Positions 16,851 through 22,008 of a DNA stretch of 64,000 nucleotides are shown in pieces (position 1 is the stretch's first letter; every line of letters starts with the position of its first letter). Source of the DNA: Candidatus Spongiisociaceae bacterium (GTDB taxonomy: Bacteria > Actinomycetota > Acidimicrobiia > Spongiisociales > Spongiisociaceae); contig OZ253564.1 of assembly GCA_965262915.1 (NCBI GenBank), forward strand, positions 4,800,001-4,864,000, in the 5' to 3' direction. Below the pieces are notes generated by a model. The model was not told the DNA's origin. It searched no databases and saw only the letters and a list, made by a program, of their open reading frames with translations. The position numbers and the translations under genes were made by a program.

Positions 16851-16978
16851 GGAGGGTGCTGAAAAACGAATCTTGCGGGGTTCGCTGGTTGGCAAACCAC
16901 CTGGTCTGAGCGTTGTGGGCTAGCGTGCGAACCCCTTTGCACAGGGATGCTCCTATGAGTGTTTTTTCAGCACCCTCC
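16851..16978. mobile_element. MITE, about 128 bp, non-coding
   Basis: Inverted repeats GGAGGGTGCTGAAAAA / TTTTTCAGCACCCTCC flanked by TA on both sides; right flank is the hflX stop codon. Confidence 0.8.
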
Positions 16979-18285
16979 TACGGGCTGGTGGCGAACTCCC
17001 GGTAGCGATCGGCCCGCTCCCGCGGTATCCGCACGCTCACCAGGGTGCCGTCGGCCCGGTGGATTTCCTCCAGGACCTCGGCTTCGCGCCGGAGCCTCCC
17101 GAGGACCTCTCCCCTCGTGTACGGGATCAGCAACTCGACCTGTCGCGAGCCACGGGCGAGGTGATCGACCAAGCGGTCCCGCAGATCGGCGAGTCCGGTC
17201 CCCTCGGTCGACGAAACGGTGACTGCCTGCGGATACAGACGCTGGAGCCGGGCGAGGATCGTCCGATCTGCCAGGTCGGCCTTGTTGAGAACCAGCATCT
17301 CGGGGACATGCCCCGCGCCGATCGAGTCGAGCACTTCCCGCACCGCGCCGATCTGACCCGGCGCCCCGGGTTCCGACGCGTCCACGACGTGGAGTAGCAG
17401 GTCGGCGCCCACTGTCTCCTGCAGGGTCGACCGGAAAGCCTCGACCAGCTGGTGGGGAAGGCGACGGACGAACCCGACCGTATCCGAGAGCAGCATCAGG
17501 CGACCGTTGGCCAACTCGAGCTTGCGGGTGGTCGAGTCCAGGGTCGAGAAAAGGCGGTCCTCGGTTCGCACGCCGGCCCCGGTCAGGGCGTTCATCAACG
17601 TGGACTTCCCGGCGTTGGTATAGCCGACCAGGGACGCCAGCGGGATGGCGGCGCCCGCCCGAGTCTTGCGCTGGCTTTGCCGCGCGCTGTGGACCTCCTT
17701 CATGCGCCGCTCCACATGCGAGATACGGCGCATGATGCGACGCCGGTCGGTCTCCAGCTTGGTCTCCCCCGGACCCCGGGTACCGATACCCCCGCCCAGC
17801 CGGCTCAGCTCGGTGCCCCTGCCCCGAAGCCGGGGAAGGTGGTACTTGAGCAAGGCCAACTCCACCTGGAGCATGCCCTCCCGGCTCGTGGCATGCTGGG
17901 CGAAGATGTCGAGAATGACCGCAACCCGGTCCACCACGTCGCACTCGAACAGCTGCTGGAGGTTGCGTTGTTGACCGGGAGCAAGGCTGTTGTCGAACAC
18001 CACGACGTCGACATCGAGCAGGTCGGCATCGCGCGCCAGGTCCTTGGCCTGGCCGGGGCCGACGAAGGTGGCCGGATGCGGCGATCGTCGCTTCAGCACC
18101 ACCGTGCCCACCGGGGTCGATCCGGCGGTATCGGTGAGGAGCCGTAGCTCCCCAATCGACCTGTTGACATCGCCGATGCCCGCTCCGGCGAGATCGACGC
18201 TGACGAGGAGCGCCTTCTGGCGCGCCACATCGAGATCGGTGACGGTGGCTGTGAGGCGGCGACCCCGACGTCCGTCCGTGGTCAT
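16978..18285 (-). CDS. hflX: GTPase HflX
   Basis: GIGTRGPGETKLETDRR, GYTNAGKST, LFSTLD, DTVGF, NKAD. Confidence 0.98.
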   Translation of the reverse strand: MTTDGRRGRRLTATVTDLDVARQKALLVSVDLAGAGIGDVNRSIGELRLLTDTAGSTPVGTVVLKRRSPHPATFVGPGQAKDLARDADLLDVDVVVFDNSLAPGQQRNLQQLFECDVVDRVAVILDIFAQHATSREGMLQVELALLKYHLPRLRGRGTELSRLGGGIGTRGPGETKLETDRRRIMRRISHVERRMKEVHSARQSQRKTRAGAAIPLASLVGYTNAGKSTLMNALTGAGVRTEDRLFSTLDSTTRKLELANGRLMLLSDTVGFVRRLPHQLVEAFRSTLQETVGADLLLHVVDASEPGAPGQIGAVREVLDSIGAGHVPEMLVLNKADLADRTILARLQRLYPQAVTVSSTEGTGLADLRDRLVDHLARGSRQVELLIPYTRGEVLGRLRREAEVLEEIHRADGTLVSVRIPRERADRYREFATSP

Positions 18286-18891: not shown

Positions 18892-18983
18892 GGAGGCGAA
18901 CGAGCGCCTGGTGGGCTCCCTGGTCTTCAAAACCAGTGGGGGTACGAGAGTGCCCCGGCGGGTTCGATTCCCGTCCGCCTCCG
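18892..18983 (+). tRNA. selC: tRNA-Sec (anticodon UCA)
   Basis: Acceptor GGAGGCG/CGCCTCC, anticodon arm CTGGT-CTTCAAA-ACCAG, long variable arm GGGGTAC-gaga-GTGCCCC, T arm GCGGG-TTCGATT-CCCGT, discriminator G; CCA not encoded. Confidence 0.95.
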
Positions 18984-19571
18984 CTAACGATAGAAGTATT
19001 TCCCCTAGTAGATACCAGTTTATTGGGTTCTGCTCACTGGTTCGGTTACTGGTGGCGACTGGCGCATTCCTGGGCGAGTTGGGAGACCCTCCACTCGGGC
19101 CGCCGACCCGAAGGATGCGCCGGCCTTTACACGCGACGAGAAGGCCCGACTGCGGGCGTTGATGCCCAAGGCCCTGACCTCGGCCCCGCGAAAGAGCCAT
19201 GCACCCTTTCTCCGCCGAAACATCGTGTCGGCCACAACTGTGCCAAGCGGCCCGAGCACGTGGGTTGCGGGAGGATAGCTCGGTCGCCCATCCTCCTCGG
19301 GCGCCTTCCAAGCCACCGTCATCAACCCGTCCCCGGCCTGCCAAACAAACGAGACACCCGCCCAGTAATCACCGAACGCCGTACCCTGATCACATCCAGC
19401 CTCATCATCCTGTTATCACCACCGCGGATCAGCAAATACTGGGGTTCTTTCGTGTTCGTAAACGTCTCGGCTCTCAGACCAGGAGGCCCCCGCCTGTTCA
19501 AGGACAAACCGCGCCCCGACCGCCGCCGGGGTGTTCACATGACCAGCTCCCTGACCGGCTACCGTGGGGGC

Positions 19572-19979
19572 ATGGCATCCGGATTGGCGGACGATCCGTC
19601 CCGCTTGGTGGTGACCGGCTCGGTCGACGACCCGGGACGTTACGACCTGGAGGATCTTCGGCGCCTGGGAGAGCGCCACGGCGACCTCGGGGACGTAGTG
19701 GTGCGGCTGGGGAATGTGATCGGGAAGGCCCGACCGACGACGGACGCCACGCACGTGTCCGCGGTGAGCGCCGACGGCTCCTACTCGGCCTCCATCCCGC
19801 TCCCGGAAGCGATCGCGAAGGGTGAACTTCATGTGGCGGGTGCATCCGGAGGGAATGCCGCTATCCGGCTCCTGGTGCCCGGTGGCATGACCCTGTGTTG
19901 GAATGTCAAAGGGCTCGGTCGGCTCCGGGTCACCGGGGGACCGGAACCGGATAGCCTCCCGGAGGTCCTGACCCACTGA
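19572..19979 (+). CDS. Small protein resembling a reduced molybdopterin-binding (sulfite oxidase-like) domain
   Basis: L.VTG.V..P..Y.LEDL, ADGSYSASIPL, IRLLVPG...CWNVKGL.RL pattern; stop overlaps the next start. Confidence 0.55.
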   Translation: MASGLADDPSRLVVTGSVDDPGRYDLEDLRRLGERHGDLGDVVVRLGNVIGKARPTTDATHVSAVSADGSYSASIPLPEAIAKGELHVAGASGGNAAIRLLVPGGMTLCWNVKGLGRLRVTGGPEPDSLPEVLTH

Positions 19980-20671
19980 TGGCCGAAGACGGGGGGATCG
20001 CCTTCGGCCGCCTCTTCTCCCAGCGACGAGCGGAACTCGACCTGTCGGTGGTGGACATCGCGGTGCAGACCGGGCGACCGATCGAAGTGGTGGTCGGCTG
20101 GGATCGGGGTACGGCGGTTCCCGACAGCGATGACCTCGCCAAGGTGGCCCAAACCCTCAGGCTCCCGAAGCCTCTGCTGGAAGAGGCGCAGAGGAGGGCT
20201 GTCGCGTACCGGAAGGTCAACCCTCCTCTCGACTCCCTCCCGGACGCGGCGTCATACCGCGAGGAACTGCCGGCCCTGGTGACCAAGCCGGGTGCCGAGC
20301 CGGCTCCTGCGACGATCACCGAGTCCTCGATTCCGCCTGCCGACGCAGCGACCGCTTTCACGTCGAGCGCCATATCGACCGCGTCCGCAGTCGCGTCCAC
20401 CGTGGCCGGCGCTCTGTCGAATGTCCTGAGCGCCGCGTCCGACATGGTCGGCGACATACGAGGGGCCATGAGCCGGAGGCGCCGCCTAGCCCGGGCGCCG
20501 ATCGCGCACCCGTCATACGTGGAGGACCGCGACCAGCTCATCACCTACCGGCTGCGCCTAGTGTTCACCGCTGCCGGAGTGGCAGCCCTGGTTCTGATCC
20601 TCCGCTGGTCCCTCGGCGGGCTCGGCTCGGCCATCGCCGACCTGTGGGAGGCGCTGAGCGGGGCACTGTAG
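19979..20671 (+). CDS. XRE-like HTH protein with C-terminal membrane anchor
   Basis: FGRLFSQRRAELDLSVVDIA..WDRG..VP..L.KVA..L HTH; low-complexity linker; hydrophobic C-terminal helix. Confidence 0.7.
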   Translation: MAEDGGIAFGRLFSQRRAELDLSVVDIAVQTGRPIEVVVGWDRGTAVPDSDDLAKVAQTLRLPKPLLEEAQRRAVAYRKVNPPLDSLPDAASYREELPALVTKPGAEPAPATITESSIPPADAATAFTSSAISTASAVASTVAGALSNVLSAASDMVGDIRGAMSRRRRLARAPIAHPSYVEDRDQLITYRLRLVFTAAGVAALVLILRWSLGGLGSAIADLWEALSGAL

Positions 20672-20719
20672 CTGGAGGAGTTACGAACCTGTCCCGAAAC
20701 ACGGCTAGAGTCACACCTA

Positions 20720-20994
20720 CCAGAGAAAGGAGGTGGTCCGGCTTGTTAGACAGTTCATGTAGGACTCTGGAGGTGGCCGAGCGCTAGCGGTCACGGGTCG
20801 CTTCCGAAAACCCCTCCCGGACGGAGCGGGTTTTCGGGCAGGTGGCGACTCCGACTCGGACCACCGAGTCTTCCCGTCCGCATGTTGGTCCTCATGCGGC
20901 ATCGGTGAGGGGAACAGAAACCCACCGATGAAGTACGGGTCGGCAGCTATCCATATCGAGTGTCGTCGGGGGCCCCGTTAGTGGGGCCCCCGAC
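20720..20994 (+). ncRNA. Candidate stand-alone structured RNA containing a 14-aa sORF
   Basis: Between convergent genes; SD AAAGGAGGTG 20726-20735, sORF 20743-20787, six consecutive helices ending in a perfect 12-bp hairpin 20965-20994. Confidence 0.6.
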
Positions 20995-21060
20995 CCGTGT
21001 GCCTGCCTTGGTGCCCGTACAGGTATGTAATGGACCCCACCGCCGGCCGGCTCTCGGCCC

Positions 21061-22008
21061 CTATCCCAAGCCGTGCTCGGCCAGCCACTCCTCGTTCCAG
21101 ATCTTCGACAGGTAGCCGCGCCCCGAATCCGGCAGCAGCACCACGACCAGCTTCCCGGTGTCCTCGGCGGCCACCTCAGCGGCGGCGTGGACGGCCATCC
21201 CTCCCGAACCCCCCACCAGAAGCCCTTCCGAACGAGCCACGCGGCGCGCCATGTCGAAAGACTGCCGGTCGTCGACCATGACGTAGCGGTCGACCACCTC
21301 CCGGTCGAGGGTCTCGGGCCAGAAGTCCTCCCCCACGCCCTCCACCCTGTACTGGTGGATCTCGTCCTCGCAGGCAGCCGAGTAGATCGACCCTTCGGGA
21401 TCGGCCCCCACCAACTCCACCGCCGGCTTCCTCTCTCGCAGGTACCGGCCCACGCCCGTTATCGTGCCGCCCGTCCCCACCCCGGCCACGAAAACGTCGA
21501 TCTCACCCCCGGTCTGCTCCCAGATCTCCGGGCCGGTGGTCAGGTAGTGTGCTTCGGGATTGAAACGGTTCGAGTACTGATCGGGATTGTAGGCCCCCTC
21601 GATCTCGGCGGTCAGGCGCCGGGCCACGCCGTAGTAGGAGTCCTCGTCCTCGGGAAGGAGTTCGGTGGGAGTGACTATGACCTCCGCTCCGTAGGCCCTG
21701 AGGAGGTCGATCTTCTCGGGCGCAACCTTGTCCGGAACCGTGCAGATCACCCGGTACCCCCGCACCGCCCCCACCATGGCGAGGCCCGCACCGGTATTGC
21801 CCGAGGTGGGCTCCACGATCGTCCCGCCGTCGCTCAGCAGACCCATCTGCTCGGCCCGCTCGATCATGTTCACCGCAATGCGCTCCTTGACGGATCCCGC
21901 CGGGTTCATGAAGTCGACCTTGGCGACCAGATTCCCGGGAACGTGGAGGCGCGAGAGACGGACCAGGGGCGTACCTCCTACCGCCTCGAGGGCACTGTCG
22001 CGTATCAC
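21061..22008 (-). CDS. Cystathionine beta-synthase / cysteine synthase family PLP enzyme (no CBS domains)
   Basis: NPAGSVKERIA, EPTSGNTG, GVGTGGT, VEGVGED, PDSGRGYLSK. Confidence 0.92.
   Translation of the reverse strand: MIRDSALEAVGGTPLVRLSRLHVPGNLVAKVDFMNPAGSVKERIAVNMIERAEQMGLLSDGGTIVEPTSGNTGAGLAMVGAVRGYRVICTVPDKVAPEKIDLLRAYGAEVIVTPTELLPEDEDSYYGVARRLTAEIEGAYNPDQYSNRFNPEAHYLTTGPEIWEQTGGEIDVFVAGVGTGGTITGVGRYLRERKPAVELVGADPEGSIYSAACEDEIHQYRVEGVGEDFWPETLDREVVDRYVMVDDRQSFDMARRVARSEGLLVGGSGGMAVHAAAEVAAEDTGKLVVVLLPDSGRGYLSKIWNEEWLAEHGLG

What the first reader, a model, noticed from the sequence alone, without database searches (positions are those of the whole stretch)
20700..20994. Stand-alone structured RNA candidate with strong SD and 14-codon sORF
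It lies between convergent genes, so it is not a 5' leader. Seen: a -10-like TAGAGT (20706-20711); SD AAAGGAGGTG (20726-20735) 7 nt before a TTG; sORF MLDSSCRTLEVAER* (20743-20787) containing a second SD-like GGAGGTG (20769-20775); its stop codon is in the loop of hairpin GTGGCCG/CGGTCAC. Back-to-back helices follow: 20797-20849 (CCGAAAACCC/GGGTTTTCGG core), 20853-20870, 20878-20899, 20900-20930 (the last two closed by CCCGT/ACGGG into a junction) and a perfect 12-bp terminal hairpin 20965-20994. It does not look like tmRNA, RNase P, SRP or 6S to me. Inference: a ribosome-engaging or dual-function ncRNA that I cannot assign to a known family.
Basis: partly seen in the sequence, partly recalled or inferred. 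Interest (0 to 1): 0.75.

Follow-up and report, generated by a model that had tools for sequence, protein, structure and literature searches.

The report
Conserved ribosome-loading small RNA gene
This is a real, single-copy small RNA gene, a distant relative of the actinobacterial sRNA Ms_IGR-5, that carries a near-perfect docking site for the ribosome and a tiny reading frame kept open in many bacterial phyla; what it does is still unknown.

Summary
The region 20719 to about 20995 (+) is a single-copy gene. It was found in 59 of 61 related genomes and in 81 of 151 sampled genomes of the phylum. Rfam gives no hit at its cut-offs. The best sub-threshold hit is full-length Ms_IGR-5 (RF02471), 24.2 bits against a cut-off of 45.

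Comparison across genomes redraws the fold:
- Helix P1 and helix P2 display a 16-nt complement of the organism's own 16S 3' end in an internal loop.
- The start codon lies in the P2 loop.
- The second GGAGGUGG is one strand of a long-range helix, P3, with an anti-SD-like CUCGGACCACC.

The mini-ORF is kept as a frame, not as a peptide. 135 of 149 loci have a canonical in-frame start, against 20 and 2 in the other frames. 144 of 149 have a stop exactly 15 nt after GAGGUGGC.

Loci with the same architecture occur in Acidobacteriota and other phyla. Neighbouring genes are unrelated to it.

My reading is a ribosome-engaging RNA whose mini-ORF translation unzips P1, P2 and P3. The output of that switch is unknown. 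I class it as a new variant of a known kind.

The parts
20706..20711 (+). -10-like box TAGAGT (TANNNT), 7 nt upstream of the predicted first base, about 20719
   Evidence: Read directly. By my reading of the alignment, the same position reads TANNNT in 24 of the 30 aligned relatives. One RNA-run contig starts at 20719, which is only a weak hint. The sigma-70 consensus scan found nothing.
20719..20995 (+). Whole predicted RNA, about 235-277 nt. The 3' end is not fixed. It could lie at the terminator or near 20950-20976.
   Evidence: BLAST conservation spans query 2-296 in the closest relatives. Short whole contigs from 4 runs of 2 studies lie inside 20719-20976.
20720..20724 (+). P1, 5' strand (CCAGA). 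It pairs with 20766-20770.
   Evidence: Measured on 134 distinct loci. Pair 6-76 reads AU 58, CG 53, GC 13. Pair 7-75 reads CG 71, AU 38, GC 11. Pair 8-74 reads GC 81, AU 17, CG 5, UA 4. For P1 and P2 together (the call's whole-structure figure), the covariation score is 0.325 against 0.116 in shuffles, and 0 of 500 shuffles reach it.
20724..20739 (+). SD1: AGAAAGGAGGUGGUCC. It is a 16-nt complement of the genome's own 16S 3' end GGAUCACCUCCUUUCU, with 15 Watson-Crick pairs and one G-U. Its core lies in the internal loop between P1 and P2.
   Evidence: Window sequence. 16S 3' end read from L192. AAGGAGGUG and UCC are invariant in all aligned relatives.
20736..20739 (+). P2, 5' strand (GUCC). 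It pairs with GGAC at 20762-20765. The P2 loop holds the start codon.
   Evidence: pair 21-66 reads GC 97, AU 11. The other three pairs are nearly invariant; 93.8% of cells are paired.
20743..20787 (+). Mini-ORF, TTG start, 14 codons, TAG stop (MLDSSCRTLEVAER)
   Evidence: 135 of 149 loci have a canonical in-frame start, and 147 of 149 if CTG and AUH codons are accepted. 144 of 149 have the stop at the fixed position. Length ranges from 11 to 17 codons. All three stop codons are used.
20766..20770 (+). P1, 3' strand (UCUGG)
20772..20786 (+). 5' strands of long-range helix P3 (GGUGGCCGAG, inside the second SD-like element) and of its extension P3b (CGCUA, covering the last sense codon and the UA of the stop)
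   Evidence: RNAalifold predicts it on 65 sequences. P3 is 99.7% paired, with 18 GC-for-AU and 4 UA-for-GC compensatory cells. P3b is 99.4% paired, with one-sided changes only.
20804..20837 (+). Variable hairpin (CCGAAAACCC/GGGUUUUCGG in this genome)
   Evidence: I4. Sequence and length vary among relatives while staying self-complementary. The length of the insert has no multiple-of-3 bias: 19, 22 and 24 loci in the three residue classes.
20843..20865 (+). 3' strands: P3b (UGGCG, 20843-47), conserved junction ACUCCGA (20848-54), and P3 (CUCGG-A-CCACC, 20855-65). The P3 strand is an internal anti-SD-like sequence. It matches the 16S GGAUCACC in 7 of 8 bases.
   Evidence: (I6) shows that the same strand is also a perfect 9-nt complement of the SD1 tail at 20732-40.
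20873..20939 (+). 3' domain. CCCGU/ACGGG closes two hairpins. H5 is 20878-20899, with loop UUGGUCCU at 20885-92. H6 is 20900-20930.
   Evidence: For H5, all 6 pairs show changes on both sides. The Rfam alignment places the H5 loop GUCC on the GUCC loop of Ms_IGR-5. H6 and the CCCGU/ACGGG closure were not tested for covariation.
20965..20994 (+). Terminator-like 12-bp G+C hairpin. It has no U run in this genome.
   Evidence: I2. Most relatives have a hairpin at this place followed by a T-rich tail. The simple terminator scan did not call it.

Best explanation
Positions 20719 to about 20995 (+) are an independently transcribed, single-copy small RNA gene. It belongs to a wide RNA family whose class-Actinomycetes branch is Rfam Ms_IGR-5.

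The 5' module is a ribosome-loading device. Two short helices, P1 and P2, hold a 16-nt complement of the 16S rRNA 3' end in an internal loop. The start codon of an 11-17-codon frame sits in the P2 loop.

I infer the following sequence of events:
1. The 30S subunit docks on the exposed SD core.
2. Its 16S tail invades the 5' strand of P2.
3. The mini-ORF is translated.
4. The ribosome must unzip the 3' strands of P2 and P1, and then the long-range helix P3/P3b. In P3 the second GGAGGUGG is normally masked by an internal anti-SD-like CCACC strand.
5. The stop codon lies at a fixed 15 nt after GAGGUGGC. At termination this places that SD-like element where the ribosome's own anti-SD can take it over.

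Translation would thus act as a switch. It toggles the 3' domain between a closed and an open state and ties the RNA's state, or its stability, to ribosome availability. The peptide would be a by-product.

Shown here: the gene, its conservation, the helices and the maintained frame. Inferred: translation in this organism, the switching, and any output.
For: - Single copy.
- Conservation: 59 of 61 related genomes, 81 of 151 sampled genomes of the phylum, nearly always one copy per genome.
- A -10-like box at a fixed distance in relatives, and a hairpin with a T-rich tail in most of them.
- RNA-run contigs confined to 20719-20976. In one metatranscriptome the contig depth is 60, against 3 for the contig just upstream. 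This is weak evidence.
- SD1 is a 16-nt complement of the genome's own 16S 3' end.
- P1 and P2 covary.
- P3 is predicted by RNAalifold, is 99.7% paired, and has 22 compensatory cells.
- Across phyla, 94 of 146 loci find a 10-bp partner for their own P3 strand. Foreign strands do so in 317 of 1460 trials.
- ORF kept: 144 of 149 loci have the stop at the fixed place. 135 of 149 have a canonical start in frame 0, against 20 and 2 in frames +1 and +2. Length varies from 11 to 17 codons. The 138 canonical ORFs give 105 distinct peptides.
- Three loci (L050, L097, L144) have the stop 1-2 nt off, and the start moves with it.
- The conserved residues (RT, EVA) coincide with strands of P2, P1 and P3.
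- Ribosome-protected reads are reported on MS_IGR-5 homologues in M. abscessus and M. smegmatis (PMC4974804, passage).
- The RNA is detected in S. lividans and S. avermitilis (PMC8079986 and PMC8780764, passages).
- Neighbour orientation is random and no gene family is shared by the neighbours.
Against: - There is no experimental datum for this organism. The contigs cannot show ends, strand or level.
- In the 120 loci found with the motif search, both SD elements were fixed by the search pattern itself. Their invariance there is by ascertainment. Only the 57 BLAST-found relatives are free of this.
- The sequences are related to one another, so the counts overstate the number of independent events.
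- The ORF's conserved codons overlap RNA helices. Part of the 'ORF conservation', especially the absence of stops, could come from RNA constraints.
- P3b shows only one-sided changes.
- The switching is not shown. The alternative local hairpins are 85-88% paired but have no compensatory change.
- No output, target or partner is known.
- Very long SD duplexes can slow ribosome clearance (my knowledge). The site may therefore hold ribosomes rather than promote translation.
Confidence: 0.6

Rival explanations
1. It is a purely non-coding sRNA. The 5' SD complement only binds a 30S subunit and shields the 5' end from 5'-dependent RNases, as the STAB-SD element does. Translation of the short frame is incidental.
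For: The SD sits 5 nt from the predicted 5' end. The STAB-SD precedent is a 5'-proximal SD that binds 30S, does not direct translation and blocks RNase J1 (PMC4113751, section 3.2 passage). The conserved peptide residues are all explained by RNA helices.
Against: A start codon at SD-appropriate spacing (7-14 nt) and in frame with the stop is present in 135 of 149 loci, or 147 of 149 with near-cognate starts. Other frames have it in 20 and 2 of 149. Length changes keep the frame. In the three loci where the stop moves, the start moves with it. Ribosome-protected reads are reported on mycobacterial homologues.
Confidence: 0.15
2. It is a tiny-protein mRNA. The 11-17-residue peptide (...EVAxx) is the functional product and the RNA structure only tunes its synthesis.
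For: A strong SD, a conserved start and stop, and a conserved C-terminal E-V-A in 135 of the 138 canonical ORFs.
Against: The N-terminal half is highly variable, with 105 distinct peptides among 138 ORFs. EVA is encoded by GAGGUGGC, which is itself a strand of P3. L050, L097 and L144 read that element in another frame and give unrelated peptides. About 200 nt of conserved, covarying RNA follow the stop. The peptide strings were found in no paper searched.
Confidence: 0.1
3. It is a cis-acting leader or attenuator that controls a downstream gene.
For: It has a short ORF plus alternative helices plus a terminator, which is the grammar of leader-peptide attenuators (my knowledge).
Against: The next gene here is convergent. 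In 105 other loci the downstream gene is co-oriented in 56 and opposed in 49. No family is shared; the commonest is THAP4_heme-bd, in 16 of 103. S. avermitilis maps the homologue as an sRNA transcription unit.
Confidence: 0.03
4. It is a repeat or mobile element (MITE/REP), or a chance G+C-rich structure.
For: Both strands fold well.
Against: There is one copy in the genome. Relatives mostly have one copy per genome. Conservation is order-wide, with covariation and strand-specific G-U pairs.
Confidence: 0.01

Closest known systems
Rfam RF02471, Ms_IGR-5 (actinobacterial sRNA of unknown function; first described in M. smegmatis, a reference I recall and did not see)
   Same: Full-length sub-threshold alignment over model positions 1-184, E = 0.0018 in a 701-nt search. 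The order of parts is the same: extended SD, start codon, GGAC, GAGGUGGC, stop 15 nt later, the CGCUA/UGGCG pairing, an AAUCC-like junction, a ...CACC strand, and a hairpin with GUCC in its loop. All 13 loci that pass the Rfam cut-off carry the same mini-ORF.
   Different: The score is 24.2 bits against the 45-bit gathering cut-off, and there is no genome-wide hit. The organism belongs to another class (record titles of the nearest pattern hits say Acidimicrobiia). The P3 3' strand is GGACCACC with a bulged A. Between P3 and the terminator there is an extra domain, H5 and H6 closed by CCCGU/ACGGG. In the Ms_IGR-5 type, the GUCC hairpin sits inside the terminator stem. The Rfam consensus structure shown does not contain P1, P2 or P3.
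Rfam RF01867, CC2171 (Caulobacter and Methylobacteriaceae sRNA, function unknown)
   Same: A 5' GAAAGGAGGUGAUCC followed closely by a start-like GUG, with a terminator at the end (consensus shown). The RNA is expressed and the conditions that affect it are unknown (bioRxiv 10.1101/2022.01.24.477521, passages).
   Different: The score is only 19.5 bits against a cut-off of 75. Only the SD and a hairpin align. I could fetch no CC2171 sequence to test for the ORF or P3. The search found 0 of 41 genomes; the control rang in Caulobacter but returned no locus. This is a lead, not a relationship.
STAB-SD 5' stabiliser of B. thuringiensis cry3A mRNA
   Same: A 5'-proximal sequence complementary to the 16S 3' end that binds a 30S subunit (PMC4113751, passage).
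   Different: [quoted passage not shown] Here a start codon and frame are conserved, and the RNA is a stand-alone structured molecule.
Leader-peptide attenuators (trpL, ermCL) and dual-function sRNAs (SgrS/SgrT, RNAIII/hld, SR1/SR1P); from my knowledge, not looked up
   Same: A short translated frame inside a structured regulatory RNA. Ribosome position decides which helices can form.
   Different: There is no downstream gene to attenuate. In the dual-function sRNAs the peptide is conserved and active, whereas here the peptide varies.

Membership tests
Rfam RF02471 Ms_IGR-5 | Score at or above the family's gathering cut-off (45 bits) | tested here: not met
   24.2 bits, E = 0.0018, at 20719-20919 (+). 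No hit at gathering thresholds or genome-wide. In the same test, 13 of 18 loci from other taxa pass with 62-190 bits.
Rfam RF02471 Ms_IGR-5 | Conserved 5' block: extended SD, then GGAC, then GAGGUGGC, then CGCUAGC | tested here: met
   Aligned column by column with the model consensus and with cut-off-passing loci in alignment A3.
Rfam RF02471 Ms_IGR-5 | Pairing of the CGCUA(G) region with ..UGGCG.. (present in Rfam's consensus structure) | tested here: met
   P3b, 20782-86 with 20843-47, is 99.4% paired in 65 sequences. The equivalent pairs are marked in the Rfam structure line.
Rfam RF02471 Ms_IGR-5 | 3' hairpin with GUCC in the loop | tested here: met
   H5 at 20878-20899 has the loop UUGGUCCU. 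cmscan aligns it to the model's GUCC loop. All 6 H5 pairs covary.
Rfam RF02471 Ms_IGR-5 | Independent sRNA transcription unit in Actinobacteria | tested here: inconclusive
   The context fits: own -10-like box, terminator hairpin, convergent genes. Only contig-level RNA evidence exists.
Rfam RF01867 CC2171 | Gathering cut-off of 75 bits and the long-range helix of the model | tested here: not met
   19.5 bits. The model's long-range helix is deleted in the alignment.
tmRNA / RNase P / SRP / 6S | A match to the Rfam models or to ARAGORN | tested here: not met
   None is listed even at E up to 10. ARAGORN finds only tRNA-Sec at 18894-18982.
Leader-peptide attenuator | A co-oriented regulated gene downstream | tested here: not met
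   The downstream gene here is convergent. In other loci 56 are co-oriented and 49 opposed.

The most novel reading that the evidence does not exclude
This would be a multi-phylum class of trans-acting 'ribosome-sensing' or ribosome-holding RNAs. It occurs in Actinomycetota and Acidobacteriota, and in scattered MAGs labelled Syntrophobacter, Krumholzibacteriia and Eisenbacteria.

An exposed 16-nt anti-anti-SD captures 30S subunits. Translation of a content-free mini-ORF then opens an internal SD:anti-SD mimic helix. The terminating ribosome is handed the second SD, so the RNA either reports free-ribosome supply or parks ribosomes and shields the 16S 3' tail.

On this reading, Ms_IGR-5, and possibly CC2171, would be local names for branches of one ancient family.
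Probability: 0.25. Interest if true: 0.85.

Novelty: new variant of a known kind. Interest (0 to 1): 0.62.

Why it matters
Ms_IGR-5 has been in Rfam for years as a name without a function. The papers I could find only list it.

This locus and its relatives add four things that I found in no paper searched:
- The family reaches beyond the Rfam model, into Acidimicrobiia, Thermoleophilia-type MAGs and other phyla.
- It always carries a translatable mini-ORF whose frame, but not its peptide, is conserved.
- The ORF's stop is locked in register with an SD-like element.
- That element is masked by an internal anti-SD-like strand.

This gives a concrete hypothesis about how a housekeeping sRNA could couple its structure to ribosome availability. 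It can be tested in model actinomycetes. It also gives a basis for a better covariance model.

Tried and rejected
- **Promoter and terminator scan**: 0 sites. The -10 box is TANNNT-type and the hairpin has no U run here, so the scan's criteria do not apply.
- **Fold energy as a guide to strand**: both strands fold well, so this is not informative.
- **The search of earlier findings**: nothing for this genome. One note (e1-3113094) shares only 3 of 107 words and concerns a multicopy family, so it is unrelated. One search failed on word format.
- **A guess that the S. coelicolor homologue is scr4389**: only show scr4389 in lists. The identity is not shown, so I dropped it.
- **CC2171 link**: 0 of 41 genomes in the class of G211. 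The control rings in Caulobacter but no locus is returned, so the architecture could not be compared.
- **Literature search for an anti-SD sponge sRNA**: nothing relevant among the 20 papers listed.
- **Literature search for the peptide strings**: 0 papers.
- **Neighbour analysis**: no conserved neighbour. The ORF calling was a G+C-third-position heuristic and some calls are spurious.
- **Read laying**: the parts of the stretch without contig cover, 20500-20584 and beyond 20976, say nothing. Contigs cannot give ends or strand.
- **Alternative local hairpins** (58-64/75-81 and 195-199/204-208 in A4): 85.5% and 87.6% paired with no compensatory change. They are possible alternative states but are not supported as the conserved fold.
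- **Pairing between the P2 3' strand and the H5 loop**: 1.81 extra flanking pairs on average against 1.41 in permutations, with 0 of 2000 permutations reaching the observed value. The sequences are related and the best of several sites was taken, so this is only a hint.
- **A long ORF on either strand**: stop-free runs are common in this G+C-rich DNA, and insert lengths show no multiple-of-3 bias. Rejected.
- **Model R1 false positives seen by eye**: L161 and L164. L110 is a coding-region chance hit of the pattern.
Full report
**Observation**

- the -10-like TAGAGT at 20706-11
- AAAGGAGGTG at 20726-35
- TTG at 20743
- the 14-codon frame 20743-20787 ending in TAG
- the second GGAGGTG at 20769-75
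- the hairpins
- the perfect 12-bp terminal hairpin at 20965-94

The flanking genes are convergent. ORF 19979-20671 (+) has no Pfam match. ORF 21061-22008 (-) is a PLP-dependent enzyme. The + strand folds far better than shuffles (z = -5.35). So does the - strand (z = -6.55), so energy does not decide the strand.

**Known families**

Rfam at gathering thresholds finds only a tRNA-Sec at 18892-18982 in the whole window. ARAGORN agrees and finds no tmRNA. With relaxed thresholds on 701 nt, the best hit is a full-length alignment to RF02471 Ms_IGR-5 at 20719-20919. It scores 24.2 bits against a cut-off of 45, with E = 0.0018. Next is RF01867 CC2171, at 19.5 bits against a cut-off of 75. Both models begin with GAAAGGAGGUG(A/G)UCC. 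Genome-wide, the Ms_IGR-5 model finds nothing.

**Copy number and conservation**

- The 301-nt stretch occurs once in the 5.06-Mb genome.
- BLAST finds it in 59 of 61 related genomes, counting the window's own, and in 44 of 45 high-quality ones. Two of the 61 are unpublished genomes, and both have a match.
- In nearly every family of the order there is one place per genome.
- The alignment of 30 loci shows invariant blocks, a variable but always self-complementary hairpin, a TANNNT box at a fixed distance upstream in 24 of 30 by my reading, and a terminal hairpin followed in most relatives by a T-rich tail.

**Wider distribution**

I scanned one genome per species for the two SD-like blocks 20-40 nt apart. 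By record titles these come from:
- Acidimicrobiia, Streptomyces, Kitasatospora, Micromonospora, Nocardioides, Mycobacterium and Solirubrobacteraceae
- outside the phylum, MAGs labelled Terriglobales, Blastocatellia, Pyrinomonadaceae, Syntrophobacter, Krumholzibacteriia, Eisenbacteria and others

One hit is a chance match inside a coding region (L110). L050 looks doubtful.

Of 18 of these loci given to Rfam, 13 pass the Ms_IGR-5 cut-off with 62-190 bits. These are seven Mycobacterium-type loci, three Streptomyces, and one each of Kitasatospora, Micromonospora and L036. Five do not pass: Nocardioides L035, Solirubrobacteraceae L054, Acidimicrobiaceae L109, Blastocatellia L068 and Terriglobales L045. 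The Rfam model therefore covers only part of the family.

I built a covariance model of the 5' domain, R1. Its results were:

| Sample | Genomes with a hit | Notes |
|---|---|---|
| The window's phylum | 81 of 151 | Nearly always one copy. Six of the 151 are unpublished, all with a match. Most genomes listed without a match are small. |
| The phylum of the Blastocatellia MAG | 15 of 81 | Includes the seed genome. Of the 12 loci I read, 11 show the architecture and L161 does not. |
| The phylum of the Syntrophobacter MAG | 2 of 81 | One is the seed genome. The other, L164, is a false positive. |

R1 was trained mostly on actinobacterial sequences, so these are lower bounds.

**Structure**

On 134 distinct 5' domains, helix P1 covaries strongly. 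Here P1 is 20720-24 with 20766-70.
- Pair 6-76 reads AU 58, CG 53, GC 13.
- Pair 7-75 reads CG 71, AU 38, GC 11.
- Pair 8-74 reads GC 81, AU 17, CG 5, UA 4.
- For P1 and P2 counted together (the call's whole-structure figure), the covariation score is 0.325 against 0.116 in shuffles, and 0 of 500 shuffles reach it. Slid controls give at most 0.068.

P2 (20736-39 with 20762-65) is mostly invariant, with GC 97 and AU 11 at its outer pair. The SD core therefore lies in an internal loop between P1 and P2, and the start codon lies in the P2 loop.

On 65 order-level sequences, RNAalifold itself predicts a long-range helix, P3. It pairs GGUGGCCGAG (20772-81, inside the second SD-like element) with CUCGG-A-CCACC (20855-65). 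P3 is 99.7% paired, with 18 AU-to-GC and 4 GC-to-UA compensatory cells. Its extension, P3b, pairs CGCUA (20782-86, the last codon plus the UA of the stop) with UGGCG (20843-47). P3b is 99.4% paired, with one-sided changes only, many of them U-G to U-A. Those changes also mark the + strand as the RNA strand. All six pairs of hairpin H5 (20878-99) covary.

They are GUGGCCG/CGGUCAC around the stop, and CUCGG/CCGAG. They may be alternative states but are not the conserved fold.

Across phyla the variable half of P3 changes in step. Examples are CCGAG/CUCGG, CCGGG/CCCGG, CUGUC/GACAG, CUGCU/AGCAG, CUACG/CGUAG and CGAGC/GCUUG. 94 of 146 loci have a full 10-bp partner for their own strand, against 317 of 1460 trials with foreign strands. 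That search picks the best site, so it is weaker evidence than the alignment-based count.

The Rfam consensus structure printed contains the P3b-like pairing and the GUCC hairpin, but not P1, P2 or P3.

**The ribosome site**

The genome's 16S rRNA ends ...GGAUCACCUCCUUUCU. Positions 20724-39, AGAAAGGAGGUGGUCC, are its complement over 16 nt, with one G-U. In the 57 relatives found by BLAST rather than by the pattern, the position opposite the 16S U is always G or A. In 16 of 65 sequences it is A, which mismatches its intramolecular partner C in P2. That fits selection for pairing with 16S rather than only for P2.

The P3 3' strand GGACCACC resembles the 16S GGAUCACC. It is also a perfect 9-nt complement of the SD1 tail (I6).

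**The mini-ORF**

Of 150 loci, 138 have ATG, GTG or TTG 7-14 nt after GGAGG and an in-frame stop just beyond GAGGUGGC. In 135 of the 138 the stop is exactly 15 nt after the G of that element.

Of the 12 without a canonical start:
- ten have CTG at the start position and one has ATC, all in frame
- the last is the chance hit L110

Against the other frames: a stop at the register position occurs in 144, 1 and 0 of 149 loci in frames 0, +1 and +2. An open frame with a canonical start occurs in 135, 20 and 2 of 149. Length ranges from 11 to 17 codons. TAG, TAA and TGA are all used, in 106, 16 and 16 loci. There are 105 distinct peptides.

In L050, L097 and L144 the stop is displaced by 1-2 nt and the start moves with it, which gives unrelated peptides. 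The conserved residues (R-T and E-V-A) are encoded by strands of P2, P1 and P3. What is conserved is therefore a translatable frame in fixed register with P3, not a peptide.

The central insert between the P3b strands varies in length without any multiple-of-3 bias, with 19, 22 and 24 loci in the three residue classes. No longer ORF on either strand is conserved.

**Expression**

Four public runs from two studies hold short whole contigs that lie inside the RNA. One run is recorded as a metatranscriptome. The other three are RNA only by the tool's guess. The contigs span 20719-20871, 20729-20953, 20738-20950 and 20792-20976. In the metatranscriptome the RNA contig has depth 60 and the contig just upstream (20585-20732) has depth 3. 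Contigs cannot show ends, strand or level, so this is a weak hint.

For homologues, papers report:
- an RNA-seq-validated Ms_IGR-5 in S. lividans (PMC8079986, passage)
- an sRNA transcription unit in S. avermitilis (PMC8780764, passage)
- ribosome-protected reads on MS_IGR-5 homologues in M. abscessus and M. smegmatis (PMC4974804, passage)

None assigns a function. I found no other paper with the name. For CC2171, the conditions affecting it were still unknown in 2022 (bioRxiv 10.1101/2022.01.24.477521, passages).

**Genomic context**

The orientation of the next gene is random: 56 co-oriented and 49 opposed. No Pfam family is common among 107 upstream and 103 downstream neighbours. The commonest is THAP4_heme-bd, in 16 of 103. 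This argues for an independent gene and against a leader.

**Mechanism (inference)**

The free RNA shows the SD core in a loop, which could act as a toehold for the 16S tail. Full 16-nt pairing must displace the 5' strand of P2 and expose the start codon. An elongating ribosome must then open the 3' strands of P2 and P1, and then P3/P3b.

With the stop codon in the A site, GAGGUGG lies 6-12 nt upstream of the P-site codon. That is the usual SD position, so the ribosome's anti-SD could replace the internal CCACC strand. The freed P2 3' strand (AGGAC) is complementary to the H5 loop (GUCCU). Flanking bases tend to extend that complementarity across taxa, with 1.81 extra pairs on average against 1.41 in permutations and 0 of 2000 permutations reaching it. 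That is a hint only.

The output could be any of three things:
- protection of the RNA, as with STAB-SD (PMC4113751)
- a structure-dependent activity of the 3' domain
- holding of ribosomes

None of these is shown.

**Verdict**

This is a real, conserved, ribosome-engaging small RNA gene. It is homologous to Ms_IGR-5 but outside the reach of the Rfam model. It has structural features (P1, P2, P3, the frame locked to P3) and a multi-phylum spread that I did not find described. I class it as a new variant of a known kind.

Noticed in passing
window 18892-18982 (+): A tRNA-Sec gene (Rfam 77 bits; ARAGORN anticodon TCA) lies next to an HflX-like GTPase gene at 16978-18285 (-). The mechanical ORF 18936-19979 overlaps the tRNA, so its true start is probably later.
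   Followed up: partly
window 20965-20999: The terminator hairpin lacks the U run that most relatives have. Its 3' arm plus tail (CCGACCCGUG, 20990-99) is complementary to two copies of ACGGGUCG, at 20793-20800 and 20935-42 (D4, I10, I11). This was not seen as conserved and remains unexplained.
   Followed up: no
L042, L048, L052, L063, L077, L098, L109, L137, L145, L149 (CTG); L128 (ATC): One group of loci, most from records titled Acidimicrobiia, Acidimicrobiales or Acidimicrobiaceae, has CTG at the start-codon position of the mini-ORF. One further locus has ATC. In all of them the codon is in frame with the conserved stop. This suggests non-canonical initiation behind the very strong SD.
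   Followed up: partly
L096, L122, L123, L134, L158, L159, L160, L162: A third architectural subtype of the same RNA. The start GTG follows directly after GAUCCA, the stop lies in a CCCC-GUA-GGGG-like hairpin, and the junction reads AACCCAAC before GCCACC. The loci come from MAGs labelled Krumholzibacteriia and from genomes of the phylum of the Blastocatellia MAG. The consensus 5' end of CC2171 shown looks most like this subtype.
   Followed up: no
L164 (G342): A false positive of model R1. It is a short Cys/Lys-rich ORF behind a perfect GAAAGGAGGUGAUCC. Such maximal SDs therefore also occur on ordinary small-protein genes.
   Followed up: no
window 19979-20671 (+): A 230-residue ORF that ends 35 nt before the RNA's -10 box has no Pfam match.
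   Followed up: no
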